From the UHGV virus genome UHGV-0295468: 11,413 nucleotides of DNA. One strand, written 5' to 3'. The notes under the pieces are model-generated. The model had not been told where the DNA came from, made no database searches, and saw only the letters and a program-made list of their open reading frames with translations. The translations under genes were made by a program, and so were the position numbers. Source of the DNA: a virus. Position 1 is the first letter of the stretch. The number at the start of each line of letters is the position of its first letter. Shown here in pieces: positions 1 through 11,413 of the stretch.

Positions 1-136
1 CACCTTATGACTGGAAGCCGATCAGGGTGGTTTGTCGTAAATGGTCGGCAAGCGTGGGGGCGTTGTGGGTAACCATAACGGCAGATTTTGAACAGGTCGT
101 GGCATAGGAGGCTCTGATGCAGGATATTCCACAGGA
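1..136. repeat. Left-terminal inverted-repeat arm: exact reverse complement of 287..422; carries an inverted copy of the M 3' end (plus-strand codons 3..107, stop 108..110) and of the first 6 codons of L (117..134)
   Basis: Base-by-base comparison: position i pairs with 423-i for i=1..136 with no mismatch; the match breaks at 137 vs 286. The arm runs to the window edge, so its true length may be larger. Confidence 0.95.
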
Positions 137-306
137 TGATACTGCCGCCCCTGCCAGGTAACCGGCTCACCTTTTTCGTTCTGCTCATTACAGAAAAAAT
201 AACGTTCACCACCGACCTCTGTCAGATCGATTTCCCAGAGCACCGCCTGGGCTGACTGAGTGAGGCGTGTCGTCTCATGATGTGTTTCCTGTGGAATATC
301 CTGCAT
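22..306 (-). CDS. L: Minor tail protein L, N-terminal fragment only. About 57 codons (306..137) are L-like; the rest of the 94-codon ORF (136..22) is out-of-frame read-through into the inverted-repeat arm
   Basis: Translation MQDIPQETHHETTRLTQSAQAVLWEIDLTEVGGERYFFCNEQNEKGEPVTWQGRQY closely matches the lambda gpL N-terminus as recalled. ATG at 306..304 lies 9 nt after the M stop, preceded by GAGG. Similarity stops exactly at the 136/137 repeat junction; lambda L is about 230 aa, so this copy is truncated. Confidence 0.8.
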   Translation of the reverse strand: MQDIPQETHHETTRLTQSAQAVLWEIDLTEVGGERYFFCNEQNEKGEPVTWQGRQYHPVEYPASEPPMPRPVQNLPLWLPTTPPRLPTIYDKPP

Positions 307-422
307 CAGAGCCTCCTATGCCACGACCTGTTCAAAATCTGCCGTTATGGTTACCCACAACGCCCCCACGCTTGCCGACCATTTACGACAAACCACCCTG
401 ATCGGCTTCCAGTCATAAGGTG
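287..422. repeat. Internal partner of the left inverted repeat; this copy is contiguous with the intact M gene and the L start codon
   Basis: Reverse complement of 1..136 (136/136). It lies within genuine coding context: L start ATG at 306..304, M stop TAG at 318..316, M C-terminal codons up to 422. Confidence 0.95.
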
Positions 423-645
423 GCGTCCACTGAAATGCGCGGACGCCACCGTGCCGTTCCAGAAAGGATTTTAAAGATGGGTGTTCACATTTACGAACAC
501 GTATCGTCACGCTGTAAGTCGACAACTGGTTATTCAGTCCCGCCGCACGACGCTGTTCATAACCATCGCCCAGCTTCACTGTCACCACTTTCGGCTCTGA
601 TACCACATTCATATCCGGGCGCACTTTCCAGTGAAACGTCTCCAT
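316..645 (-). CDS. M: Minor tail protein M (109 aa)
   Basis: Same length as lambda gpM with clear similarity along the protein (METFHWKV..., WTPPYDWKPIRV..., ...FEQVVA). ATG at 645..643 overlaps the H stop TAA (647..645) by one base; correct position between H and L. Confidence 0.9.
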   Translation of the reverse strand: METFHWKVRPDMNVVSEPKVVTVKLGDGYEQRRAAGLNNQLSTYSVTIRVRKCEHPSLKSFLERHGGVRAFQWTPPYDWKPIRVVCRKWSASVGALWVTITADFEQVVA

Positions 646-3600
646 TACCGATATGCTCCACTTAACCGACCACCATCACGGGCCTGCTGTTGCATAAAGT
701 CCGCTGCCGCTTTTTTCCCAAGGTCATAAACCACCTTCAGGGCAGCAGGACCTATCTGCCCGTTCGTGCCATCGTTATTGATCTCGATGTTGTACTGCGG
801 GGCAAACATCGCCATACCTGAACCACCAATATCCGCCACAACCCCCAGCTTACCGTCAGCACCACGACGCAGTGGCAGAATGGCTTCAGGTCCAGCTTCC
901 CCCATCACACCCGCGCCTTTTGCAAAAGCAAAAAACGTCGGACGGTTAACCACCGTGCCACTGTAGCGACTCAAATCAGCCGACTGATAAACACCGCCAT
1001 CAGCATTGGCTACAAAATCAAAAGGCAGCGCGGAAGCAATGCCTTTTACCGCTTTCATTAAAGCTATCTGAGCCATGATTCTGGACATATCTGACAGCAC
1101 AGAAGAGGTGAAGGATTTGAAATTGAGTTTGCCTGTAGTACAGAATGTCGCCAGCCAGTCACTCATGCTACTGAACGCAGACGTGAACAACTGTTCCACT
1201 GTCCCGGCTGTGTTATCCGCATTCTCAGTGACATTCTGGAGTGCACGCAGGACTCCGTTTTTCCAATTACCCTGAGCAATTTCAAGCCGTTGCCAGTAAC
1301 GGCGATTCTCATTCAGTTGTCGGTTCAGACTCTCCGTCAGCGCCTGCTCGGCCTTTCTGTAGTCATCCGTGTTATATGTCCCTTTCTGCTCACTATCCCG
1401 CCTCAACTGCTCCAGCTGTTGCTGGTATTTCTGGCGAAGACTCAGTTGTACCTGATATCGCTGCCGCTGCTGATCACCCATACCCACCGTGGCGATATCC
1501 AGGTCATGTTGCTGACGCTGAGCGCGCTCTTCTTCAGCCAGTTGACTGGTCAGCTGAATTGTTTTTTTCTTCAGATCGTTGAGTGCCGTCTGTTTCTGAA
1601 GCTCCTGCTGTTTTACATCCAGCAGCGTCAGTGCCTGAATCAGTTCATCTTTACGGGCCAGCACACTCTTTTCATCTGCCGTCAGTTTTTTCCCGTCCAG
1701 ATCGCTGATGCGCTGCTGCAGAGCCAGAAGCTGTTTATGCGCTTCTGTCATCTTTTCAGTGGCAATGCCTGCTGACTGTCTTGCAGCAGCAATCTGTCCT
1801 TCCACCTGTGCCTGTTGCTGACTGTACTGCAGCAATAACCGGGTGGCCTCATCATTACGGGTTTCGCGTGTTTTTTTCTTACCGGATGCCAGGGCTTTCT
1901 CGTAACGTTCATTTTCACGTTGTATCGCCGCATCCCTGACAGCCTGATCGGCGTACTGCATGGCATTAATACGCGCAATTTCACGCTGATGTCGTGCAGC
2001 TTCCGTTTCATTCATCCGGTTCAGTGCAGCATTTTCAGCATTACGGCGTTTCTGTTGCTCCTGATAATTCCGCTCTGCCTGCTCTTTTGCATCCTGCAAA
2101 TCCTTCTGGCGTTTTTTCTCCTGAAGATCGTTAAGACGCTGCTGATCGTATTCAACCTGAGAAGATGATGCCGTCCAGGGGAGTCTTTTCGCCCGCGACA
2201 CTTTCTCCTGCAAAGTGGCAATCTGCGCATCCAGCGAATCTTCACGACCAATATTCATGGCCGCATCCCAGAACTGCTTCCACCAGTCAGACAAAGTTTG
2301 CAGCGTACTGCCCAGCGCATTGAGGTTATTATCAATATCCGCAGTACGCCGACCGGTTTCCTCTGCCAGTGCAGACATGGCTATCCGTGCCGCATCACTG
2401 GACCGCCCCTGCTCTCCAAGGACGCGTATCTGCTCAAGCTGAGTGGCAGTAAGAAAATGCAGCTCATTGTCCAGAGACTTCGCGGCATTTACAGGATCAT
2501 CCTTCAGCCGCTTAAACTGATTTATGGTATCGCTGACCGACTGGCCAACCGATCGCTCCATCTGTGCGGCAGCTCTCGCCACCATACCGATATCGTTTCC
2601 ACGAAATGCACCACTCCCCACCACCTGAGCCAGCGCACCGGCTGCAGCATGTTGCGTGATACCATTCCCGGAAATAGCACGACTGAGCGTCCACAGCTGC
2701 CCGGCAGTGACTCCGGCATAATGCCCCGTCAGCGACAGCTGGCGGTTAAATTCTTCCCCCTCCTTCTGACCGTCATACCAGGCTTTACCCAGGCCATAGA
2801 CAGCCGCGGCAATACCGCCAATAACCCCGCCAAGCATCATGCCTTTCGGTGACATCAATGTGTCTATCCACCCGGCACGGTTAGCCAGCGTTATTCCGGA
2901 TCCCCTCAGCGCACCTAAATTTCCGCGGGCCAGTTCACCTATCAGAACGCCTATCTCCTGACGGGCCGCTGCACTTTTCAGCCCCAGCGAATGCGTGGCT
3001 TTTCCTGCCTGCTCCATTTTGCGGATATACACTTCTGCAGCACTGCTTACCCCCAGCTGGGCAGCCTTGGCACGAAGCAACTCAGAAGAAGAAAGATTCT
3101 GGCGGGTTGCCTGCTCTTTAAGCTGACGGATAAACGCCACTTTCTGTCGGGTAGCCTCTTCCTCAGCCTGTGTAAGAACACGGGTTTTCGCCGTAACCTC
3201 AGAAATCAGCGCCAGATAATCCTGCTGACCAATCCCGCCACTGTTTCTGGCCTGTCGGATCTGCTGCTGAATACGCTGTAATTCCTGCAGACCCGCACTG
3301 GCCTGTTTCACACTGTCAATCTGACGATAAAACGCAGCAGCCGCTTTATCCTGAGCCTCCGCCAGAGCCATGGCCTGCGCCTGTTCCTCGCGCATTTTCT
3401 GGCTCAGCGCCTCCATACGCTGGCGGGTTTTCTCCACCTCGCGGGCCATGCGTTCATGAGCCTGTGCGTTCTTCTCCACCGTCTGCGCATGGACGGATGC
3501 GGCTGTTGCAGCCGAAGACGCCGCCTGCGTTGTCTGCCGGGCGGCCTGAGTCTGACGCTCCATAAAACGCTGCATACGGGCAGAAGACCGTTCTGCATCG

Positions 3601-3701
3601 CTGGCTGCACCATTCAGAAGGTTTTTGATACGGGGGATTTCATTTTTAAACTCTGCCGCATCAATCCCCAAATCAATGACCAGGTTGGCTATCTGGTCCA
3701 T
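645..3701 (-). CDS. H: Tail tape measure protein (gpH-like), 1018 aa from the ATG at 3701
   Basis: N-terminus MDQIANLVIDLGIDAAEF and C-terminus INNDGTNGQIGPAALKVVYD...RDGGRLSGAYR match lambda gpH termini as recalled. Long Q/A/E/R-rich coiled-coil repeats and a Gly-rich hydrophobic segment are typical of tape measure proteins. ATG at 3701..3699 is preceded by GGAGGTG with 6-nt spacing; the ORF track starts 10 codons earlier at a TTG (3731), which I consider less likely. Confidence 0.92.
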   Translation of the reverse strand: MDQIANLVIDLGIDAAEFKNEIPRIKNLLNGAASDAERSSARMQRFMERQTQAARQTTQAASSAATAASVHAQTVEKNAQAHERMAREVEKTRQRMEALSQKMREEQAQAMALAEAQDKAAAAFYRQIDSVKQASAGLQELQRIQQQIRQARNSGGIGQQDYLALISEVTAKTRVLTQAEEEATRQKVAFIRQLKEQATRQNLSSSELLRAKAAQLGVSSAAEVYIRKMEQAGKATHSLGLKSAAARQEIGVLIGELARGNLGALRGSGITLANRAGWIDTLMSPKGMMLGGVIGGIAAAVYGLGKAWYDGQKEGEEFNRQLSLTGHYAGVTAGQLWTLSRAISGNGITQHAAAGALAQVVGSGAFRGNDIGMVARAAAQMERSVGQSVSDTINQFKRLKDDPVNAAKSLDNELHFLTATQLEQIRVLGEQGRSSDAARIAMSALAEETGRRTADIDNNLNALGSTLQTLSDWWKQFWDAAMNIGREDSLDAQIATLQEKVSRAKRLPWTASSSQVEYDQQRLNDLQEKKRQKDLQDAKEQAERNYQEQQKRRNAENAALNRMNETEAARHQREIARINAMQYADQAVRDAAIQRENERYEKALASGKKKTRETRNDEATRLLLQYSQQQAQVEGQIAAARQSAGIATEKMTEAHKQLLALQQRISDLDGKKLTADEKSVLARKDELIQALTLLDVKQQELQKQTALNDLKKKTIQLTSQLAEEERAQRQQHDLDIATVGMGDQQRQRYQVQLSLRQKYQQQLEQLRRDSEQKGTYNTDDYRKAEQALTESLNRQLNENRRYWQRLEIAQGNWKNGVLRALQNVTENADNTAGTVEQLFTSAFSSMSDWLATFCTTGKLNFKSFTSSVLSDMSRIMAQIALMKAVKGIASALPFDFVANADGGVYQSADLSRYSGTVVNRPTFFAFAKGAGVMGEAGPEAILPLRRGADGKLGVVADIGGSGMAMFAPQYNIEINNDGTNGQIGPAALKVVYDLGKKAAADFMQQQARDGGRLSGAYR

Positions 3702-4035
3702 AACGCACACCTCCGGAAATACCTTCCCCAAGATGCATCAGTTCTTCGTCCGTTCGCTCCGGTATCCCGTTCTCTTCCGGTAAAAGGCTGAAATCAGCCA
3801 CCGCAGCATCACTGCTGCCGGACACCATTCTCACGATCAATGCCTTCAGCGAGGCAAACTGCGCATCCATCCACACATCACTGAAGCTCTGCATCCGGAA
3901 ATAATCGCCCCACTCACCAAGCTCAGTGGCCGACATTTCCGACAGCATCCGCCGCCAGTCTGCCCGCCGGAACTCCCGGGCAAGCCGCATGACAAACTGC
4001 ATTTCCCGCGTCAGGACTTTTCCGGCGTCAGCGCC
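3673..4035 (-). CDS. T: Tail assembly protein T segment: the -1 frame ORF overlapping the 3' end of G, probably expressed only as a G-T fusion by programmed -1 frameshifting
   Basis: The -1 frame relative to G is open from 4035 (just after an in-frame stop at 4038..4036) to the stop at 3675..3673. It overlaps the G stop and sits between G and H exactly as lambda T does. A lysine-codon slip site lies one codon before the G stop. The internal ATG at 4002 has no obvious Shine-Dalgarno sequence. Confidence 0.65.
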   Translation of the reverse strand, partial: GADAGKVLTREMQFVMRLAREFRRADWRRMLSEMSATELGEWGDYFRMQSFSDVWMDAQFASLKALIVRMVSGSSDAAVADFSLLPEENGIPERTDEELMHLGEGISGGVRYGPDSQPGH

Positions 4036-4397
4036 TCATGCTCATCATCCCCGGCATTATCAATGGCCCCCATACCGCTCAGCGACAGAACCATCTCCGC
4101 CCCCGCACCCAGGGCATCATACGACCATGTTGTAATAACGGATGCGCAAAGCGTCTCTACATCCTTAGACTGATCCGCATTCCACAGTGAGCGGGAAACC
4201 AGCCAGGCATTGATATCCATCCCCATCCGCAGAAAAGCAATCTGTCGTTCAGCCTCCGGCAGTTCTCCCTCACCGGCATCAAACTTTGCCGTTCGCTGCT
4301 GAACAAACGCCAGATATTCAATTCTCTGCAACCCGGACAGCTCACTGAGCACCACGGACTGTTTTTCATAATTAAACGTGCCCTGTTTCAGAAACAT
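4011..4397 (-). CDS. G: Tail assembly chaperone G (128 aa from the ATG at 4397)
   Basis: Translation MFLKQGTFNYEKQSVVLSELSGLQRIEYLAF... resembles lambda gpG (MFLK..., TLSELSALQRIEHLA...). GGTGGAG Shine-Dalgarno 6 nt upstream of the ATG at 4397..4395. The ORF-track start at 4439 is a TTG inside the upstream hairpin and is unlikely. Confidence 0.85.
   Translation of the reverse strand: MFLKQGTFNYEKQSVVLSELSGLQRIEYLAFVQQRTAKFDAGEGELPEAERQIAFLRMGMDINAWLVSRSLWNADQSKDVETLCASVITTWSYDALGAGAEMVLSLSGMGAIDNAGDDEHEALTPEKS
4017..4023 (-). other. Candidate -1 ribosomal frameshift site GGAAAAG (minus strand) linking G to T
   Basis: G-frame codons read CCG GAA AAG TCC TGA. An AAG-to-AAA lysine tRNA slip at 4019..4017 would enter the T frame. 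The only window where both frames are open is 4035..4014. The motif differs from lambda's GGGAAAG as recalled. Confidence 0.5.
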
Positions 4398-4413
4398 CAT
4401 GTTCTCCACCTGC

Positions 4414-4437
4414 AAAAAAGCCCCGGATAACCGGGGC
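4414..4437 (-). terminator. Intrinsic-terminator-like hairpin between V and G: 7-bp GC stem (GCCCCGG/CCGGGGC), 4-nt loop, followed on the coding strand by TTTTTT
   Basis: Plus strand 4420..4437 is gccccgg-ataa-ccggggc, preceded by A6 at 4414..4419; on the minus (coding) strand this is a stem-loop followed by a U6 tract, 20 nt after the V stop and immediately before the G ribosome-binding site. Confidence 0.55.
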
Positions 4438-4457
4438 AAATGATGAGTATCGTCCTG

Positions 4458-5201
4458 TTAACCTGCGGCGCTGACAGTCACCGCAGCCACAGCCACAAAA
4501 TTCCCGTCAGCGGTCATGCCCACAATGCTGACACTGCCCTGCTTCACGCCTTTCACCGTGGCCACAAGCCCGTTCAGGGTCACCGTGGCAGTCTGTGGAT
4601 CTGACGAATGCACACTGATCGCTTTGTCACTGGCTCCGTCAGGTTTTACTGTAAAGGTCAGCGTGGTGGTTGCTCCCACTTTTACACTGGCAGATGCCGG
4701 TGCCACCGTCAGCCCGGTAACGCTCACTGTTTCAGTGCCTTCCTCTGCCAGATACGGACGCCCCACACCGCTGATTTTCACAGTGCGGGTCATCACGTCT
4801 TTTGAGGCAATGGTTTTACCCAGTGAACTCAGCCAGCCACGGAAAACATCAACAGTACCGTTGGGATATTTGATACGAAACGCGCAGACTTCACCGGAGT
4901 CGAACAACTGAACCAGTTTTTTCTGCCCGCTGTCACCCGGACGCCAGGCCAGCGTCGCCGAAGTATCACCGACTGATTTCTGCCCCTGGGTTGTCGTTTT
5001 CCAGTCTGCATCTTCATCATCGAGATAAGTATCATCTTCTGCATCAGCGGTCATTTCGCCAGGTTGCAGATCCTTCACCATCGCAAGACGCAGCCAGTCA
5101 GTGTCCGACAAAGGGTTCGCAAATGCGTCGCCGTTGCCGGTATACATCCAGAACGTCGTCCCCGCACCTTTCGTCTTTGCCAGTGGATTTGGTGTGGTCA
5201 T
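4458..5201 (-). CDS. V: Major tail protein V with C-terminal Ig-like domain (247 aa from the ATG at 5201)
   Basis: Strong similarity to lambda gpV as recalled (KGAGTTFWMYTGNGDAFANPLSD..., DTYLDDEDADW..., YPNGTVDVFRGWLSS...). Perfect AAGGAGG Shine-Dalgarno 5 nt upstream of the ATG at 5201..5199. The C-terminal ~90 aa are Thr/Val/Ser-rich and Ig-like. The ORF-track start (GTG at 5276) would overlap U. Confidence 0.92.
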   Translation of the reverse strand: MTTPNPLAKTKGAGTTFWMYTGNGDAFANPLSDTDWLRLAMVKDLQPGEMTADAEDDTYLDDEDADWKTTTQGQKSVGDTSATLAWRPGDSGQKKLVQLFDSGEVCAFRIKYPNGTVDVFRGWLSSLGKTIASKDVMTRTVKISGVGRPYLAEEGTETVSVTGLTVAPASASVKVGATTTLTFTVKPDGASDKAISVHSSDPQTATVTLNGLVATVKGVKQGSVSIVGMTADGNFVAVAAVTVSAAG

Positions 5202-5211
5202 TGCCACCTCC

Positions 5212-5613
5212 TTAATTCGTGTACGTGATCTGGTACGTGATTTCCGCCATCGCCCAGGTGGCCATCTCATTATCACGTTGATAGTTAAAACCGAGTGGGA
5301 TCAGGGTGTCGATGAGTCCGGAAAGTGCCGGTACATCATTCAGGGCCGGGAAAATGGTGCTCTCCATCCACATATCCAGCTCTGAATCCGGTGCCTGTGC
5401 CCGGATGAAGACAGCAATATGCAGAACAGCCTGCCAGTCATCTTCATCCGTCATTTTTCCGGTGTACTGAGCATCACTCAGCCACACCGCCACGGCAGGC
5501 AGTTCCTGCGCATCAACAAATGCCGGAAGCCCGTCAAAAAACGTGGCGCTGTCTCCACACTGTTCCCGAAGGCGTGCCAGTACGACCTGGCGGATTTGTG
5601 TATGTCGGTTCAT
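5212..5613 (-). CDS. U: Tail terminator protein U (133 aa from the ATG at 5613; an alternative ATG at 5625 gives 137 aa)
   Basis: Similarity to lambda gpU (ATFFDG..., PAVAV..., YTG, DSELD.WMES, ITY.ITY). The ATG at 5613..5611 overlaps the Z stop TGA (5612..5610) in an ATGA arrangement, suggesting translational coupling. Confidence 0.88.
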   Translation of the reverse strand: MNRHTQIRQVVLARLREQCGDSATFFDGLPAFVDAQELPAVAVWLSDAQYTGKMTDEDDWQAVLHIAVFIRAQAPDSELDMWMESTIFPALNDVPALSGLIDTLIPLGFNYQRDNEMATWAMAEITYQITYTN

Positions 5614-6188
5614 CGGGTCAGCCATAACCTCAGTTGTTGTTTCAGTGCATACCCCAGCTGTTTCGGCATTTCCGCAGCAATGATGCGGTCGCGGGCATCT
5701 TCAAATGCCTGTGTCAGCGGTCCGGACAGCGGGATTTTCACCACATCAATGGGGTAACGATTTTTGCCATCAATACGCCGCATCACATGCCAGCGACCAT
5801 TCGCCAGTTGCTGAATAAACGCATCCCGGAAAAGATATTTACCCACCTTCAGCACACTGCCACGGTACTGCAGTTTTCCACCACGCCGGGCCAGTCTGAC
5901 CCGGGCTGTCCCCAGCTTAATGGCGGGAAGATTGCCCCGGTTAACGCGGATCCTGGCCGTCATTTTTCCTGACGGACTGGCTTTAAACACCCGGACACGC
6001 TGACGTACCAGTTTCAGGGGGATCCCTTTCACCTGGTTATCTCCCGCAACGGTATTCCCGGCAACCTGCCGGGTGGCAACCGAGACCGCTTTCTGTGCCA
6101 CACGGTTTATCGCCCATGCGCTGGCCTGTGGCACCATACGGGTATCAAGGCTGTTCAGATTGCGGATGGCATTCTCAAGCCCCTTCAT
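5610..6188 (-). CDS. Z: Minor tail protein Z (192 aa)
   Basis: Same length as lambda gpZ with near-collinear similarity (MKGLE..., PQASAW.INRVA, QRVRVFKA, IRVNRG.LPAIKLG, NGRWHVM.R..GKNRYPIDVVKIP, LGYAL). GAGGTG Shine-Dalgarno 5 nt upstream of the ATG at 6188..6186. Confidence 0.92.
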   Translation of the reverse strand: MKGLENAIRNLNSLDTRMVPQASAWAINRVAQKAVSVATRQVAGNTVAGDNQVKGIPLKLVRQRVRVFKASPSGKMTARIRVNRGNLPAIKLGTARVRLARRGGKLQYRGSVLKVGKYLFRDAFIQQLANGRWHVMRRIDGKNRYPIDVVKIPLSGPLTQAFEDARDRIIAAEMPKQLGYALKQQLRLWLTR

Positions 6189-6199
6189 CCCACACCTCT

Positions 6200-6775
6200 T
6201 TACTCAATAAAGATCATTGGCTTACCGTTAAAGCGTTCATGCCGTGTGACCGTCCATTGTTGTCCGTCATAAACAACGCGATCCCCGCGCCGTGGGCGGT
6301 ATCCCGAAGAAAACACCACCAGAGAGACTCTGATCCCTTTTCCCGGTTGGCAGCGCGTATGGATGCGATCACGGTCAGAAAGATGGGAAAGACAGCCTCG
6401 ATTAATGATGTCGATATGGCTGTGATCCCGGGAGAAACACTGGCAGAGCTGAATGCTCTGTCCGGACCTCGGCACTTCTTCTGCACTGGTTCCGGCATCT
6501 GCCCAGACAACCCCGACCAGCGGCTCAGAGCCGCTGTTAGTCAGCTGAACTTTTCCTGACTTCAGATAAACCTTCTTACCCGTTTTCATGTCATCCGTTT
6601 TCAGCTTAGGCAGCATAAACACACCTTCGGTTATGCCGTCGCCTGTTTCTCCCTGTGGAATATCGGTCAGCGCCACCGCAAAAACATCCCCCACCTGCAC
6701 CAGATCTCCGCTGCTGATGGCTGCACTGGCAACAATCGCCACCGTTTTTCCTTCTTCTACAAAATTCTTTGCCAT
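6200..6775 (-). CDS. Continuous 191-codon ORF: N-terminal ~115 aa resemble a gpD-like head decoration protein; C-terminal ~45 aa resemble head-tail joining protein gpFII; no stop codon between them
   Basis: ATG at 6775..6773 with GGAGA Shine-Dalgarno 5 nt upstream. N-terminal part (KTVAIVASAAISSGD..., YLKSGKVQL, VVWADAGTSAEE) resembles lambda gpD (AAVGILAVAAD, FYKSGTFRY, VLWPEAASDE). The C-terminus (GKGIRVSLVVF...RRGDRVVYDGQQWTV) resembles the lambda gpFII C-terminal region (GQGVRV...SLFV...RRGDTLTIGEENFWV). Whether this is one fused protein or two genes merged by a frameshift is unresolved. Confidence 0.55.
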   Translation of the reverse strand: MAKNFVEEGKTVAIVASAAISSGDLVQVGDVFAVALTDIPQGETGDGITEGVFMLPKLKTDDMKTGKKVYLKSGKVQLTNSGSEPLVGVVWADAGTSAEEVPRSGQSIQLCQCFSRDHSHIDIINRGCLSHLSDRDRIHTRCQPGKGIRVSLVVFSSGYRPRRGDRVVYDGQQWTVTRHERFNGKPMIFIE

Positions 6776-6818
6776 AACTGTCTCCGCACAGCCCCGTTCA
6801 GGGGCTGATTTCAGGTAC

Positions 6819-6838
6819 AAAAAAAGCCCTTACGGGCC
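6819..6838 (-). terminator. Weak terminator-like hairpin after the capsid ORF: 4-5 bp GC stem with GTAA loop followed by T7 on the coding strand
   Basis: Minus strand reads ggcccgtaagggc followed by ttttttt (plus-strand A7 at 6819..6825), 24 nt downstream of the capsid stop. The stem is short, so this is tentative. A second 5-bp GC hairpin (plus 6791..6805) sits just upstream of the next ribosome-binding site. Confidence 0.35.
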
Positions 6839-6861
6839 ATCAGAGTTGTTGTCTGCGACGT

Positions 6862-8820
6862 TTACGCCGTACATTTCACCAGGCCGCGGTGATCAACTGG
6901 CGCAACACCAGCGTCAATACGCACTTTCGTTGTCACGCCATCCACACTGAAGCCCTCCATCTGATCAATATATGGCGTATCCACACCGTTGAGATAAGCC
7001 ACTTCAATCGTATCGGAGCCTTTGGACGCAGCCAGGTAGAAGGTGGTCTGGCTGTTATCATCAAGACGAGGCTCTGCAATAACGGTCGCAAAATCTTTCA
7101 CCGGGTTAATAATACCGGCGTTAATGTCAGCCCCCTTGACACTTGAGGAGCGAATGACCTGGTTAGCAACAGACTCCATCGCCGTCGGTACCAGTACGAA
7201 CGCAGGACGAATATTCAGATGACGCTCACCCTCTTTCTGAACGCGCATCAACTGGCGGGCTTTATCCAGCGATGCCACGTCCATTGCCGCGCTCTCCAGT
7301 ACGTTTGCATGTTTCGCTTTATCGAACAGACTTACATTATCTGTGGAGATTTTCGGGTTAGACGTCAGAATGGCATAAACCAGATCGGCAATAGTGGATT
7401 TCGCCGCACGGCCCAGCTTCATCGGGACATCGGTCAGCATATTCAGATCATCATTGATAATGGCCTGACGGGTGATACTGAACAGCTCGCCATAGGTCGC
7501 CAGTGCAATAGTGGCCTGTTTATCTCCGGTGGTGACGTATTTATATTCTGCCCCTTCACGCACCTGACGCAGAGCACTGAAGCCCCCCATACCCACACGA
7601 TGGGCAATTTTAAAATCAGACAACTGACCTTTCCGCGTCCACTGTTCATAGGTTTCAGGGGCATCTTCCCAGCCCTGCAGAATGGCTTTGTTCGCAACAT
7701 CCAGCAGAATATTACCGAAGTCAGACGTACTGTGTGTGAACGCCGCACCGACCATCTGCATCGGGTTATAACTGGAAACACCAATACCACGTTCAGTCAG
7801 TGACATACGGGCATATTCACGCAGGGTCATCCCGTTGTAGACATTATCACGTTCAGTTTTTTCAAACCCGGCGCGCGCCATCAGCGCCTGGCGGATCCCG
7901 TCCCCCACAAAATTACCGTTACCGGCATAAATATGAGCCGGGGTATTTTTATTGGATGGCGTGGACTCGCGCCCCATCTCGTTCAACAGCTTTTCGCGGG
8001 CCTGCTCCAGCGAACATTCAGGATCGGCAAGACACTGAGCCTGCAACGACTGATAACGCCCGCCAAACATGGCAAACAGATCATTAATACCGTTTACACG
8101 CGCTTTTTGCTCTGCCAGGACCTGCGCACGGATGCTGTTTTCATCCACCACGGGTGCTGCTGCCTGCACTGGCGTCCGGGAGGCTGCAGGTCCATCATCC
8201 TGTACGCGTGGAGCACTGTTGCGTGGCGGAGTAATCATATTTCGAATGGATTCCGGCATCTTTTTAAATTCCTCTGTACGTTTTGACTGAATACATGCCA
8301 TTGCCTTAACGGCTGGTGTCACCTGATCAGCAAATCCCTGTGCCAGACATTCGGCACCGGACATCCAGGTCTCATCCGCCAGCATGGCAGCAATTTCATC
8401 GGTGGTTTTCCCGGTTTTCTGTGCATAAGCGGGTAACAGAACCGCCTCAACTTTATCGAGCAGGTCGGCATAGGTGCGCATGTCCTCCGCATCACCGCCC
8501 GTAAAGCCAAATGGTTTATGAATCATCATGAAGGAGTTTTCCGGCATAATGACCGGGTTTCCCACCATCGCAATGACCGACGCCATTGACGCCGCCACAC
8601 CGTCGACATAAACGGTAATGGACGCACCATGTGTTTTCAGTGCATTAAAAATGGCGATGCCTTCAAAGACATCGCCACCCGGTGAATTAATATGGAGATT
8701 AATGTGGGTGATATCGCCCAGTGCATTCAGATCACTGATAAACTGCTTCGCCGTAACACCCCAGAAACCAATCTCGTCATAAATATAAATATCCGCGTCA
8801 CTCTGGTGACCTGCCTGCAT
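6862..8820 (-). CDS. Prohead protease (ClpP/S14-like), scaffold-like linker and HK97-fold major capsid region in one 652-aa ORF
   Basis: N-terminal ~200 aa have ClpP-like features (IYIYDEIG..., INSPGGDVFEGIAIFNALK, VDGVAASMASVIAM, MIHKP). The middle is a charged Ala/Gln-rich region. The C-terminal ~330 aa look like an HK97-type capsid protein (no lambda gpE similarity). ATG at 8820..8818 lies 13 nt after the portal stop. The ORF-track extension to 9081 starts at a TTG and overlaps the portal by ~250 nt. Confidence 0.78.
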   Translation of the reverse strand: MQAGHQSDADIYIYDEIGFWGVTAKQFISDLNALGDITHINLHINSPGGDVFEGIAIFNALKTHGASITVYVDGVAASMASVIAMVGNPVIMPENSFMMIHKPFGFTGGDAEDMRTYADLLDKVEAVLLPAYAQKTGKTTDEIAAMLADETWMSGAECLAQGFADQVTPAVKAMACIQSKRTEEFKKMPESIRNMITPPRNSAPRVQDDGPAASRTPVQAAAPVVDENSIRAQVLAEQKARVNGINDLFAMFGGRYQSLQAQCLADPECSLEQAREKLLNEMGRESTPSNKNTPAHIYAGNGNFVGDGIRQALMARAGFEKTERDNVYNGMTLREYARMSLTERGIGVSSYNPMQMVGAAFTHSTSDFGNILLDVANKAILQGWEDAPETYEQWTRKGQLSDFKIAHRVGMGGFSALRQVREGAEYKYVTTGDKQATIALATYGELFSITRQAIINDDLNMLTDVPMKLGRAAKSTIADLVYAILTSNPKISTDNVSLFDKAKHANVLESAAMDVASLDKARQLMRVQKEGERHLNIRPAFVLVPTAMESVANQVIRSSSVKGADINAGIINPVKDFATVIAEPRLDDNSQTTFYLAASKGSDTIEVAYLNGVDTPYIDQMEGFSVDGVTTKVRIDAGVAPVDHRGLVKCTA

Positions 8821-8833
8821 CCTGAACCAGGAA

Positions 8834-10342
8834 TTATTCTTCGGACTGGTCGTCGGTGTGCTGCGGCTCCTGTCGTTTCGTTGCGGCACTGCTGCCTCCT
8901 TTATCACTGGCCGGATCGGTATCAAATACCAGATCCAGCTTGCGGTTTTCATCAATTTCGGCCTTGCGCCGACGTTTGACATCATCTGGATTACGACCAC
9001 CTGCACGTACCCAGTCTGATTCTGTCGCCGCTCCACCACGAATCTGAATTTTCCAGGCCTCAGCCTCCTTAACAGGGTCAATCCACGGCATCACCGGTCC
9101 GGAATACACCGCGGTATACAGTGAAGAACGATCAAGATCGCGGGGTAGCCTGATAACACCGGATGCCACAGCCTGTTTCAGCCAGGCACGATACATCGGG
9201 CGGGTGACGGCACCAATAAACCAGTCCTGCAGGATCAGGTAGCCATCAGTGGATTCAACCAGCTCCTGACGCTGGGCGCTGTAAGTGCCGTTATAGTTGC
9301 GCGCTGTACTGGAAAAACTCAGACGACTGCCCGCCGCCACGGCACGCAACTGACCATTACGAAAAGTTTCAAGATTAGGATTGGGGCGATCCGACTTCAC
9401 CATTCCGATTTCTTCGCCGGGTTTCAGATCGTCGTAAATAATGCCTGGCTGAATGGTAAGCTCGCGTTCCTTATCCTTGCTGCCATTACCATCCGGTTCA
9501 TAGCTCTGCCCGTCGCCTTTCCGGATGTACATCCCCAGAGCAGCGGCGATCCTTGCTGCAGTCAGCTCAGAATCTTCATACTCTTTCAGGGCACTGAGGC
9601 GGATCAGCACACCGGACAACAAAGACGTCCCGCGCATCTGGTGCAGACGGCGAACAAATTTAAGATGCAGCATTCGCTCTGCATCCACTTCTTTGGTTTC
9701 CATCTGCCGTCCGGATACGGGACGGCTTTTATACACCAGATATTTTTCGGGACGCCCCCAGTCATCAACAAACACGCCCTGATTCAGCCTGTTGCTCTCA
9801 TCACTGGTCATGGGAATAAAGTCCGGCTCGAGCGCCTCCAGCCAGAAATGAACACCGGCAGAAGGCGTCAGGCTGTTTATGCGCCCGGAAACCATCTGGG
9901 CAAACACCTCACCATCGCGCAGCCAGGTACGCAACATCAGACGTTCCAGCATCGGACGGGTAAACTGCCCGGTGACTTCCGGACTGACAGACCATTCACT
10001 CCATCGGGTGCGTATCTCCGCTGCCAGATCACGGGCAATGGCCCCATTGCGTAATACCGGATGTGGCTCGACAATAATCCCGTTTTTCCCCACCACCCGT
10101 TCTTCCAGCTTGTCAAATACACCAATGACCAGATCGTGGTTGTTATCAAGGTAACGGGCCTGCTCACGTAACGACACGGCCCCGTACTGGCTTAACTGGT
10201 CGGCAGTTCGGTTTTCCCGCCGGGCTTTGTGTGTCCGCGTCGTTTTTACGGCCTCATAAGCCTGGATCACCGCACGGGAACGCAGCCTTGCCGCTTTCCA
10301 TCCTGGTGAAAAAACGCCAATCACATCATCAAGAATTGCCAT
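8834..10342 (-). CDS. Portal protein (502 aa from the ATG at 10342)
   Basis: Size and position (between W/terminase and the protease-capsid gene) are typical of a portal; acidic C-terminal tail. The ATG at 10342..10340 overlaps the W stop TGA (10344..10342) in an ATGA arrangement. Assignment rests on synteny and general appearance, not on a recalled alignment. Confidence 0.8.
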   Translation of the reverse strand: MAILDDVIGVFSPGWKAARLRSRAVIQAYEAVKTTRTHKARRENRTADQLSQYGAVSLREQARYLDNNHDLVIGVFDKLEERVVGKNGIIVEPHPVLRNGAIARDLAAEIRTRWSEWSVSPEVTGQFTRPMLERLMLRTWLRDGEVFAQMVSGRINSLTPSAGVHFWLEALEPDFIPMTSDESNRLNQGVFVDDWGRPEKYLVYKSRPVSGRQMETKEVDAERMLHLKFVRRLHQMRGTSLLSGVLIRLSALKEYEDSELTAARIAAALGMYIRKGDGQSYEPDGNGSKDKERELTIQPGIIYDDLKPGEEIGMVKSDRPNPNLETFRNGQLRAVAAGSRLSFSSTARNYNGTYSAQRQELVESTDGYLILQDWFIGAVTRPMYRAWLKQAVASGVIRLPRDLDRSSLYTAVYSGPVMPWIDPVKEAEAWKIQIRGGAATESDWVRAGGRNPDDVKRRRKAEIDENRKLDLVFDTDPASDKGGSSAATKRQEPQHTDDQSEE

Positions 10343-10554
10343 CAGAACCTCGCAAGCCGGTACCCGGGATGCCCCCGTCGTCGTGTAATCAGAGCCGCAA
10401 GGCGGCGCTCCCACTCCTGCCGTCCCTGCCGGATCTCAGATAAGTTTTCCATGGTCATCTGCTGACCATTAAAGGTGACGGATTTTCCGTCCAGCACCGC
10501 CATTTCAGCTTCCGTATAACGCTGAATCATGGCTTCGATATCATTCTGGTTCAT
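10342..10554 (-). CDS. W: Head-tail joining protein, gpW-like (70 aa from the ATG at 10554)
   Basis: Small protein directly after the terminase gene with a C-terminal RRRGHPGY motif resembling lambda gpW (RRRGPAGF). The ATG at 10554..10552 overlaps the terminase stop TGA (10553..10551); GGAGG lies 6 nt upstream. The track ATG at 10560 has no spacer after the Shine-Dalgarno sequence. Confidence 0.7.
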   Translation of the reverse strand: MNQNDIEAMIQRYTEAEMAVLDGKSVTFNGQQMTMENLSEIRQGRQEWERRLAALITRRRGHPGYRLARF

Positions 10555-11330
10555 AACCATCCTCCGGAAGTCAGCCAGGGGTTAACATCGTCAGTTACTG
10601 TTTTCTTCCGTTTTTGTTTTTTAACAGGCGTGGATACCGGTTCCGGTGTGGGTGACGGTTCGGTACTGTCCGGGACACACTCCAGCCAGGTTTCCCGGCT
10701 CGCCCACTCCGGTGCATCCGGCCAGCGGATCTTTTCGTATCCATGCAGAATGACCAGAGCCTCGGCATACACCATCAGGTCAAAAGCTTCGTTGGCACCG
10801 CGACCCGGCTTACTCCATTTCCCGTCACTGCTCCGCTCTTCATACGTCAGTTCGTCGTAAAACCAGCTCCCCAGCCAGTCAGGGAAATGCACATAGCCGG
10901 GACCTGGCGAGTCACGCCATAACGCGTTATTCACCCGGTCTTTCAGGGCATCCGTCTGAAGAAGCCAGAGCGGTACATCACCTGCGGCCTGCGCCCGTCG
11001 GCCCGTTCGTCCGGTGTTATCAGGGAATGTACGGGTGATCAGTTTTGCGCGCCGGATGCTGTCGCCCTTAAACAGGTAAATACGTTTACCAAGGCCATCA
11101 CGACGGCAACGACGCCAGAATTTATAGGCATTATCAGTGACCCCGTCTTCACCGCCGGAGTCCACCGCCATTGCCATCAGTCGCATTTGTTGAGAAGGAT
11201 CGGAGGCCAGCGGCCAGCTTTTATGAAAAACATCCGTCAGCAGGACATCCCAGTCTTCCGGATAGCTGGCCGGATCAATTCGCTGGCTCTCCCCGATGGC
11301 GGTGGACTCCGGCGGTGAAGACGGGGTCAC
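10551..11330 (-). CDS. A: Terminase large subunit, C-terminal fragment only (about 248 codons, 11294..10551); the codons above 11295 are read-through into the right inverted-repeat arm and the N-terminal ATPase part is absent
   Basis: Position immediately upstream of W and portal with ATGA coupling to W; globular, Trp/Asp-rich sequence typical of a terminase nuclease domain. The ORF-track start is a GTG inside the inverted-repeat arm. Assignment is by synteny and general appearance; not verified by search. Confidence 0.7.
   Translation of the reverse strand: MTPSSPPESTAIGESQRIDPASYPEDWDVLLTDVFHKSWPLASDPSQQMRLMAMAVDSGGEDGVTDNAYKFWRRCRRDGLGKRIYLFKGDSIRRAKLITRTFPDNTGRTGRRAQAAGDVPLWLLQTDALKDRVNNALWRDSPGPGYVHFPDWLGSWFYDELTYEERSSDGKWSKPGRGANEAFDLMVYAEALVILHGYEKIRWPDAPEWASRETWLECVPDSTEPSPTPEPVSTPVKKQKRKKTVTDDVNPWLTSGGWL
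11054..11171. repeat. Internal partner of the right inverted repeat, inside the terminase coding sequence
   Basis: Exact reverse complement of 11296..11413 (118/118); position i pairs with 22467-i; the match breaks at 11172 vs 11295. Confidence 0.95.
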
Positions 11331-11413
11331 TGATAATGCCTATAAATTCTGGCGTCGTTGCCGTCGTGATGGCCTTGGTAAACGTATTTACCTGTTTAAG
11401 GGCGACAGCATCC
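11296..11413. repeat. Right-terminal inverted-repeat arm: exact reverse complement of 11054..11171, running to the window edge
   Basis: Base-by-base comparison with no mismatch over 118 bp, separated from its partner by a 124-bp unique spacer (11172..11295). The arm reaches the last base of the window, so the true length is unknown. Confidence 0.95.

What the first reader, a model, noticed from the sequence alone, without database searches (positions are those of the whole stretch)
1..422. Perfect 136-bp fold-back inverted duplication at the left end truncates tail gene L
Positions 1..136 are the exact reverse complement of 287..422, separated by a 150-bp unique spacer (137..286) that encodes L codons 7-56. 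The L reading frame loses its similarity to gpL exactly at the 136/137 junction, so L is cut at about codon 57 of ~230 and no K, I or J tail-tip genes follow. Zero mismatches over 136 bp implies a very recent event or a technical origin. Two readings fit: a strand-switch (fold-back) chimera created during amplification or assembly, or a real palindromic rearrangement that inactivated the tail module. The arm reaches the window edge, so the duplication may be longer.
Basis: seen in the sequence. Interest (0 to 1): 0.72.

Follow-up and report, generated by a model that had tools for sequence, protein, structure and literature searches.

The report
Wrong-way read pieces: assembly artefact
The perfect fold-back that seems to cut tail gene L is one of three read-sized pieces placed backwards in this record (both ends and one in the middle), so it is almost certainly a sequencing or assembly artefact in an ordinary E. 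coli prophage, not a real rearrangement.

Summary
Positions 1-136 are the exact reverse complement of 287-422, the spacer is 150 nt, and L keeps 56 native codons of 232. It is not an isolated event. The right end carries a mirror-image fold-back (11054-11171 / 11296-11413; 118-nt arms, 124-nt spacer) that cuts the large terminase. A 141-nt piece (6329-6469) is also inverted in place, with 3 and 13 nt missing beside it. Apart from these three wrong-way pieces, the window is 100% identical to a complete E. coli chromosome (GCA_964052905.1) that has the normal gene order with L, K and I called in full (J lies beyond the fetched stretch). None of the four junctions occurs in 5,426 complete E. coli genomes or in 102 related loci. 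Neither end junction occurs in the genome or metagenome collections, nor the left one in the viral collection. All four junctions are inverted joins with no shared bases, link points 124-154 nt apart, and involve pieces of 118-141 nt. That is the geometry of mate reads attached in their as-sequenced orientation where true coverage stopped. Polymerase strand-switching (MDA) and fragmentation artefacts need junction complementarity, which is absent in 4 of 4. Verdict: technical artefact; L is very probably intact in the real genome. Interest is low.

The parts
1..136 (.). Left arm: a wrong-way (reverse-complement) copy of 287-422 that reaches the window edge
   Evidence: 100% complementary; it aligns to the reference on the opposite strand to the core.
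137..286 (-). Left spacer: native L sequence (codon 7 third base to codon 57 second base). Position 137 is the outermost native base.
   Evidence: collinear alignment to all references starts at 137; 56 native L residues.
287..422 (-). Native copy of the left arm: L codons 1-7, the M-L intergenic bases and the 3' end of M
   Evidence: annotation transferred to the window (L start at 306; M at 316-645).
22..306 (-). Chimeric L' ORF (94 aa): 56 native residues plus 38 residues read from the wrong-way arm
   Evidence: The product is not in the gene index.
137..6328 (-). Collinear segment A: L' (N-terminus), M, H (tape measure), T, G, V, U, Z and the 3' part of the Gifsy-2-family gene. 100% identical to L004.
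6329..6469 (.). A 141-nt piece inverted in place (reference L001 18196-18336). Reference bases CGC (3 nt) and CATTGAGTTTTAC (13 nt) are missing on its two sides.
   Evidence: No complete E. coli genome has this arrangement.
6200..6775 (-). Artificial fused ORF (191 aa) made by the inversion: cement protein plus the C-terminal half of the Gifsy-2-family protein
   Evidence: PF09956 at residues 7-101; PF13856 profile 51-97 at residues 143-188. Not in the gene index.
6470..11295 (-). Collinear segment B: cement protein, protease/capsid fusion, portal, W-like protein and the C-terminal 247 residues of the large terminase. 100% identical to L004.
11054..11171 (-). Native copy of the right arm (inside the terminase nuclease domain)
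11172..11295 (-). Right spacer (124 nt). Position 11295 is the outermost native base.
11296..11413 (.). Right arm: a wrong-way copy of 11054-11171 that reaches the window edge

Best explanation
The fold-back is not part of the phage genome. It was created when the record was built, most probably because mate reads of Illumina-type pairs entered the assembly in their as-sequenced orientation. This happens, for example, when read 1 and read 2 of a spot are written end to end without reverse-complementing one of them. Such joins are normally outvoted by correctly overlapping reads. They survive only where the true path has no continuation, which means the two dead ends of the contig and one short stretch of missing coverage. 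At each dead end the outermost read drags its mate along, backwards. The result is arm (mate, 136 or 118 nt), then spacer (insert length minus read length, 150 or 124 nt), then the native copy. At the internal gap, two such joins (144 and 154 nt) bridge a 141-nt island in the wrong orientation and lose the uncovered 3 and 13 nt. Shown: the anatomy, the absence of the junctions everywhere else, and identity to a normally arranged genome. Inferred: the read-pair mechanism and the low local coverage. The numeric confidence (0.7) is for an in-silico origin at the read-handling or assembly level. Within that, the specific unflipped-mate route is about 0.5. A technical origin of any kind is about 0.95.
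For: (1) There are three wrong-way pieces in one 11.4-kb record. Two of them sit exactly at the two edges. (2) Once the pieces are flipped back, the window equals a complete chromosome (L004, GCA_964052905.1) at 100.000% over all 11,159 core bases and both arms. That chromosome has TerL (700 aa), L (232 aa), K and I called in full. (3) Junction probes are not spanned in any of 5,426 complete E. coli genomes, while about 1,270-1,960 of them hold the same sequences in the normal arrangement. Exact 40-mers of both end junctions are absent from genome contigs and metagenome contigs, and the left one from viral contigs. All four 30-mers are absent from the first 22 fetched loci. The three chimeric ORF products are absent from the gene index. 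(4) All four junctions are head-to-head or tail-to-tail, have 0 nt of shared sequence, and join points 150, 144, 154 and 124 nt apart. The wrong-way pieces are 136, 141 and 118 nt. This is the geometry of forward/reverse read pairs with inserts of roughly 240-300 bp. (5) Controls: 0 of 102 related loci have a terminal fold-back, and 42 of their ends coincide with record ends. Only the window, out of 74 sequences with at least 3 kb aligned, has opposite-strand segments. (6) Arm lengths below 141 and an island of exactly 141 bracket a de Bruijn k of 137-141. k-max 141 is widely used with MEGAHIT, and MEGAHIT rescues singleton k-mers in low-coverage regions (the 'mercy k-mer' approach).
Against: No reads, coverage data or record name are available, so the mechanism is inferred from geometry alone (n = 4 junctions). 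A plain de Bruijn unitig would break at the arm-spacer branch, so the exact assembler logic that leaves 136- and 118-nt arms is not demonstrated. A low-coverage assembly might be expected to carry a few base errors, yet the core has none against L004. Standard pipelines split spots correctly (Logan, for example). The literature search found no published description of this specific artefact.
Confidence: 0.7

Rival explanations
1. Physical chimeric DNA molecules were made in the laboratory before sequencing. One route is polymerase strand switching or snap-back during multiple displacement amplification. Another is fold-back pairing of single-stranded ends during fragmentation and end repair. 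The assembler then followed these molecules at dead ends.
For: 85% of MDA chimeras are inverted and intramolecular. Their typical distance is a few hundred nt, peaking at 250-300, the same scale as 124-154 nt. A double switch (points ordered 1-3-2-4) would give an in-place inversion with small flanking losses in one event (own knowledge of the template-switch model; not tested here). Sonication and enzymatic libraries do produce inverted chimeric reads.
Against: For inverted MDA chimeras under 10 kb apart, 93.5% have at least 2 bp of complementarity at the junction, and overlap peaks at 6 nt. Here 0 of 4 junctions have any shared base, which has a probability of roughly 1e-5 under the MDA figures. 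The fragmentation (PDSM) model requires a natural inverted repeat or palindrome at the join. The longest local complementarity here is 5-6 nt, no more than at random site pairs (5.33 +/- 1.0). Rare physical chimeras do not explain why both record ends carry one.
Confidence: 0.2
2. This is a real rearrangement in the source DNA. The prophage remnant or packaged DNA carries inverted duplications at L and at the terminase gene plus a 141-bp inversion, which inactivates the tail and packaging modules.
For: The sequence as given encodes it. Defective lambdoid prophages are common in E. coli (own knowledge). The 150-nt spacer would make an inverted repeat more tolerable than a perfect palindrome (own knowledge).
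Against: This needs four independent blunt inverted joins within 11 kb, with two falling exactly where the record ends. There is zero divergence between the arms and zero divergence from a normally arranged chromosome. The junctions are absent from every genome and collection searched. There are no flanking inverted repeats or recombinase sites. The sizes of pieces and jumps match read and insert sizes.
Confidence: 0.04
3. Some other in-silico cause produced it. Possibilities are a scaffolder or gap-filler inserting read-sized contigs in the wrong orientation, post-processing that removed N gaps, or deliberate or accidental editing of the record.
For: The three wrong-way pieces abut their neighbours with no overlap, as concatenated scaffold members would. 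The window has no N.
Against: The terminal arms duplicate sequence already in the contig, which scaffolders do not normally place. No trace of gap characters remains.
Confidence: 0.06

Closest known systems
Mate reads joined in as-sequenced orientation (unsplit read 1 + read 2 spots) and carried into an assembly
   Same: The joins are only head-to-head or tail-to-tail and share no bases. The jump equals insert length minus read length (124-154 nt). The wrong-way pieces are no longer than a read (118-141 nt). The joins survive only at dead ends and at a coverage gap.
   Different: This could not be verified on reads. No published description was found in the library searched. The assembler step that keeps whole-read arms is inferred.
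Inverted chimeras of multiple displacement amplification (Lasken and Stockwell 2007, PMC1855051; Tu et al. 2015, PMC4595205)
   Same: Inverted orientation, an intramolecular origin, and partner sites a few hundred nt apart.
   Different: MDA junctions nearly always show 2-21 nt of complementarity (peak 6 nt). Here 0 of 4 junctions have any.
Fragmentation / end-repair fold-back artefacts (PDSM model, Chen et al. 2024, PMC10908179)
   Same: Chimeric reads in which one part is the reverse complement of nearby sequence.
   Different: That model needs a natural inverted repeat or palindrome at the join, and none is present here beyond chance.
Lambda-like phage cdtI / mEp460 structural module (NC_009514, NC_019716) and the equivalent E. 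coli prophages
   Same: The core 137-11295 is 98-98.5% identical to these phages and 100% identical to a prophage of GCA_964052905.1. The gene order TerL-W-portal-protease/capsid-cement-Gifsy-2-Z-U-V-G-T-H-M-L is the same.
   Different: The only differences are the three wrong-way pieces and the two truncations they cause.
Hairpin telomeres of linear phage-plasmids (N15 type)
   Same: Inverted-repeat sequence at both ends of a linear record.
   Different: From own knowledge, such telomeres read as spacer-less palindromes at a dedicated site next to a protelomerase gene. Here the ends lie inside L and the terminase gene, have 124-150-nt spacers and differ from each other. No telomere resolvase gene is in the window.

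Membership tests
Unflipped-mate (read 1 + read 2 end-to-end) assembly artefact | Every junction is an inverted join (head-to-head or tail-to-tail) compatible with a forward/reverse pair | tested here: met
   4 of 4 junctions
Unflipped-mate (read 1 + read 2 end-to-end) assembly artefact | Distance between joined points equals insert length minus read length, so it falls in a narrow library-like range | tested here: met
   150, 144, 154 and 124 nt. The library parameters themselves are unknown.
Unflipped-mate (read 1 + read 2 end-to-end) assembly artefact | No junction microhomology beyond chance | tested here: met
   0 nt on both sides of all four junctions. The chance expectation for all four being zero is about 0.10.
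Unflipped-mate (read 1 + read 2 end-to-end) assembly artefact | Junction sequences occur in the raw data only at the read 1 / read 2 boundary of spots | not testable with these tools
   No reads are available and the source record was not traced.
MDA inverted chimera | Inverted orientation, with partner sites under 10 kb apart | tested here: met
MDA inverted chimera | At least 2 bp of complementarity at the junction (93.5% of such chimeras; peak 6 nt) | tested here: not met
   0 of 4 junctions
Fragmentation / end-repair (PDSM) chimera | A natural inverted repeat or palindrome at the join | tested here: not met
   The longest complementary match within +/-25 nt is 5-6 nt, against a random mean of 5.33, sd 1.0.
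Real genomic inverted duplication / inversion | The junction is present in independent genomes or assemblies | tested here: not met
   0 of 5,426 complete E. coli genomes span the probes for any of the four junctions. End-junction 40-mers give 0 hits in genome and metagenome collections, and the left one gives 0 in the viral collection. 0 of the first 22 fetched loci hold any junction 30-mer.
Real genomic inverted duplication / inversion | Native reads or PCR products span the junctions | not testable with these tools
   Needs raw reads or source DNA.
Phage minor tail protein L (PF05100) | A full-length match to the family profile | tested here: not met
   L' matches profile positions 1-31 of 206 only and keeps 56 of 232 residues. 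The loss is attributed to the artefact.
Hairpin-telomere linear replicon | A spacer-less terminal palindrome plus a protelomerase gene | tested here: not met
   Spacers are 150 and 124 nt and the ends lie inside L and TerL. All genes in the window are head and tail genes.

The most novel reading that the evidence does not exclude
The record faithfully represents a real linear DNA of about 11 kb. This would be a defective, copy-back (snap-back) derivative of a lambdoid prophage with inverted-repeat ends and an internal template-switch inversion, for example one generated during aberrant replication or packaging.
Probability: 0.03. Interest if true: 0.5.

Novelty: not a real feature. Interest (0 to 1): 0.06.

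Why it matters
It matters only as quality control. Taken at face value, the record would be read as a tail-defective, packaging-defective prophage with three novel proteins: a truncated L, a cement/Gifsy-2 fusion and a truncated terminase. All of these are most likely products of wrong-way read pieces. The pattern gives a simple screen that could be run on public contigs before their end genes are interpreted. Look for perfect inverted repeats that touch a contig edge, have a spacer of roughly insert length minus read length, and share no bases at the junction.

Tried and rejected
(1) I tried to trace the source record. Exact-product look-ups of the three chimeric ORFs found nothing. Exact junction 40-mers found nothing in the viral, genome or metagenome collections. 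Look-ups of the portal and capsid proteins returned only long, normal loci, because these proteins occur in about 15,000-18,000 blocks.

(2) I tested whether the contig ends at places where two prophage copies in one genome diverge. In GCA_964052905.1 the two copies differ near true positions 134 and 158 but are identical across the right breakpoint. So there is no consistent support for this idea.

(3) I considered MDA and fragmentation artefacts and marked them down because junction complementarity is absent.

(4) I considered proximity-ligation (Hi-C) junctions. By eye, no filled-in restriction-site motif (such as GATCGATC) is present at the four junction sequences shown.

(5) I considered an invertible switch for the 141-nt piece. 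It has no flanking inverted repeats and 16 nt are lost.

(6) I considered plain Logan k=31 unitig logic. It would give arms of at most 30 nt, and Logan splits spots, so it is not a straightforward source.

(7) I considered simulating an assembler. No assembler is installed, and a toy one could not discriminate between the mechanisms.

(8) A quick pattern search for a G/T frameshift slippery site found none of the five motifs tried. I did not pursue it.

Full report
**Observation.** The reported repeat is real and exact. Positions 1-136 are the reverse complement of 287-422, with 150 nt between the arms. On the minus strand, tail gene L starts at 306. The chimeric ORF 22-306 shares its first 56 residues with the 232-residue L of an identical reference and then reads 38 unrelated residues out of the arm. 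Pfam sees only Phage_tail_L profile positions 1-31 of 206. Every reference phage and prophage stops aligning collinearly at 137.

The same repeat scan shows a second perfect fold-back at the other edge. Its arms are 11054-11171 and 11296-11413 (118 nt) with a 124-nt spacer. It cuts the large terminase so that only the C-terminal 247 of 700 residues remain. Aligning the window to an intact prophage revealed a third anomaly. Window 6329-6469 (141 nt) is the reverse complement of the sequence that belongs there, and 3 nt (CGC) and 13 nt (CATTGAGTTTTAC) are missing on its two sides. This fuses the cement-protein gene to the C-terminal half of the Gifsy-2-family head-tail gene. The record therefore contains four inverted junctions: 136|137, 6328|6329, 6469|6470 and 11295|11296.

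**What the sequence is otherwise.** The core is the head and tail module of a very common lambda-like E. coli prophage of the cdtI / mEp460 type, 98-98.5% identical to those phages. Its portal and protease/capsid proteins occur in about 14,700 and 17,800 blocks of the public gene index. M, H, T, G, V, U, Z, the protease/capsid fusion, the portal and the W-like gene are all intact. One complete chromosome (GCA_964052905.1, locus L004) matches the window at 100.000% in every piece, including both arms and the inverted island. That chromosome has the normal order, with TerL (700 aa), L (232 aa), K and I called in full. J lies just beyond the fetched stretch of L004 but follows in the annotated references L001 and L002. 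The window equals that chromosome with three pieces turned around and 16 bases dropped, and nothing else changed.

**Is any junction seen elsewhere?** No. Probes across the left junction, the internal inversion and the right junction are not spanned in any of 5,426 complete E. coli genomes. Between 1,265 and 1,957 of those genomes contain the same sequences in the normal arrangement. Exact 40-mers of both end junctions are absent from the genome and metagenome collections, and the left one from the viral collection. Thirty-mers of all four junctions are absent from the first 22 fetched loci. The three chimeric ORF products are not in the gene index.

As controls, none of 102 related loci has a terminal fold-back, although 42 of their ends coincide with ends of the stored record. 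Among 74 sequences with at least 3 kb aligned to the reference, only the window has any opposite-strand segment, and it has three.

**Anatomy of the junctions.**
- All four are head-to-head or tail-to-tail joins.
- All four have zero shared bases on either side.
- The joined points lie 150, 144, 154 and 124 nt apart.
- The wrong-way pieces are 136, 141 and 118 nt.
- Local complementarity around the joined sites (5-6 nt) is no greater than at random site pairs (5.33 +/- 1.0).

**Mechanism.** Any head-to-head join (p, q) with p < q can be written as a plus-strand read ending at p followed by its minus-strand mate starting at q. A tail-to-tail join is the mirror case. So each of the four junctions is what results when the two reads of a normal forward/reverse pair are written one after the other as sequenced. 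The jump then equals insert length minus read length.

Jumps of 124-154 nt and pieces of 118-141 nt fit trimmed reads of about 150 nt and inserts of about 240-300 bp. Such joins exist for every spot, but they are beaten by correctly overlapping reads. They can survive only where the true path has no continuation.

This explains three things. It explains why two junctions sit exactly at the two ends of the record, with the arm running to the very edge. It explains why the other two flank a short island with small uncovered stretches beside it. And it explains why the rest of the contig is flawless. This step is inference from geometry, and I could not see reads.

A further inferred constraint applies if a de Bruijn assembler was used. 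Arms that do not re-enter the graph must be shorter than k. An inverted island linked by two different junction-bearing reads must be at least k long. Together these give 137 <= k <= 141. A k-max of 141 is in wide use with MEGAHIT, and MEGAHIT rescues singleton k-mers in low-coverage regions (the 'mercy k-mer' approach). This is a lead, not a finding.

**Rivals.**

*Polymerase strand switching in MDA.* It gives mostly inverted, nearby chimeras. However, 93.5% of inverted chimeras under 10 kb apart have at least 2 bp of complementarity at the junction, and overlaps peak at 6 nt. Four overlap-free junctions are very unlikely under that process.

*Sonication or enzymatic fold-back artefacts.* They need a natural inverted repeat or palindrome at the join, and none is present.

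*Blunt ligation of random fragments.* It would not give four nearby, always inverted partners.

*A real rearrangement.* It would require four independent blunt inverted joins in 11 kb, two of them exactly at the record's ends, with no divergence at all from a normally arranged genome. I rate it at about 4%.

*Other in-silico causes.* Scaffolding or editing steps cannot be excluded (about 6%).

**Comparison with known things.** The module itself is a known phage module. The fold-back behaves like a read-orientation artefact. It resembles MDA and fragmentation chimeras in orientation and scale but fails their defining junction-complementarity feature. It is not a hairpin telomere, because the spacers are 124-150 nt, the ends lie inside L and the terminase gene, and the window has no resolvase gene.

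**Verdict.** L is very probably intact in the real genome, followed by K, I and J. This is not a real feature and the interest is low. Its only value is as a warning and as a simple screen for edge-touching perfect fold-backs in public contigs.

**Unresolved.** The identity of the source record and assembler is unknown. So are the exact step that leaves whole-read arms, and whether the 3- and 13-nt losses are coverage gaps or clipped tips (note).

Noticed in passing
window 11054-11413: A mirror-image perfect fold-back sits at the right edge (118-nt arms, 124-nt spacer). It truncates the large terminase to its C-terminal 247 of 700 residues.
   Followed up: yes
window 6329-6469: A 141-nt segment is inverted in place, with 3 and 13 nt lost beside it. 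This creates an artificial fusion ORF of the cement protein and the Gifsy-2-family protein (6200-6775, minus strand).
   Followed up: yes
L003 and L004 (both GCA_964052905.1, CAXKJZ010000001.1): One chromosome carries two lambdoid prophages whose structural modules are identical from window-equivalent position 407 to beyond 12,800. They differ only by scattered SNPs in and upstream of L. Such twin modules would collapse in short-read assemblies.
   Followed up: partly
(index statistics for window 8834-10342 and 6862-8889): The portal and protease/capsid proteins occur in about 14,700 and 17,800 collection blocks. The commonest longest-contig class is 10-20 kb, which suggests this module is typically recovered as a contig of that size in short-read assemblies.
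   Followed up: no
L019 (GCA_048858505.1 ABYIFW010000029.1), locus 1-10000: In this locus the protease/capsid gene has no called portal or terminase gene upstream of it. Mu-like genes (baseplate J, Com, Mom) and an invertase lie further upstream instead, and the window aligns only up to 10200. This is either a mosaic prophage or another assembly join.
   Followed up: no
L018, L020 (tape-measure position) and L022 (L position): Gene calls are missing at the tape-measure or L positions in otherwise normal loci. No reason was established; disruption of the genes in those genomes is one possibility.
   Followed up: no
window 8834-8889: The portal gene and the ClpP-like protease / major capsid fusion gene overlap by 56 nt, as in the references. 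Protease and capsid are encoded as one 675-residue product.
   Followed up: no
window arms (136, 118 nt) and island (141 nt): These lengths bracket a possible de Bruijn k of 137-141, which is compatible with the widely used MEGAHIT k-max of 141. This is a lead to the assembler only.
   Followed up: partly
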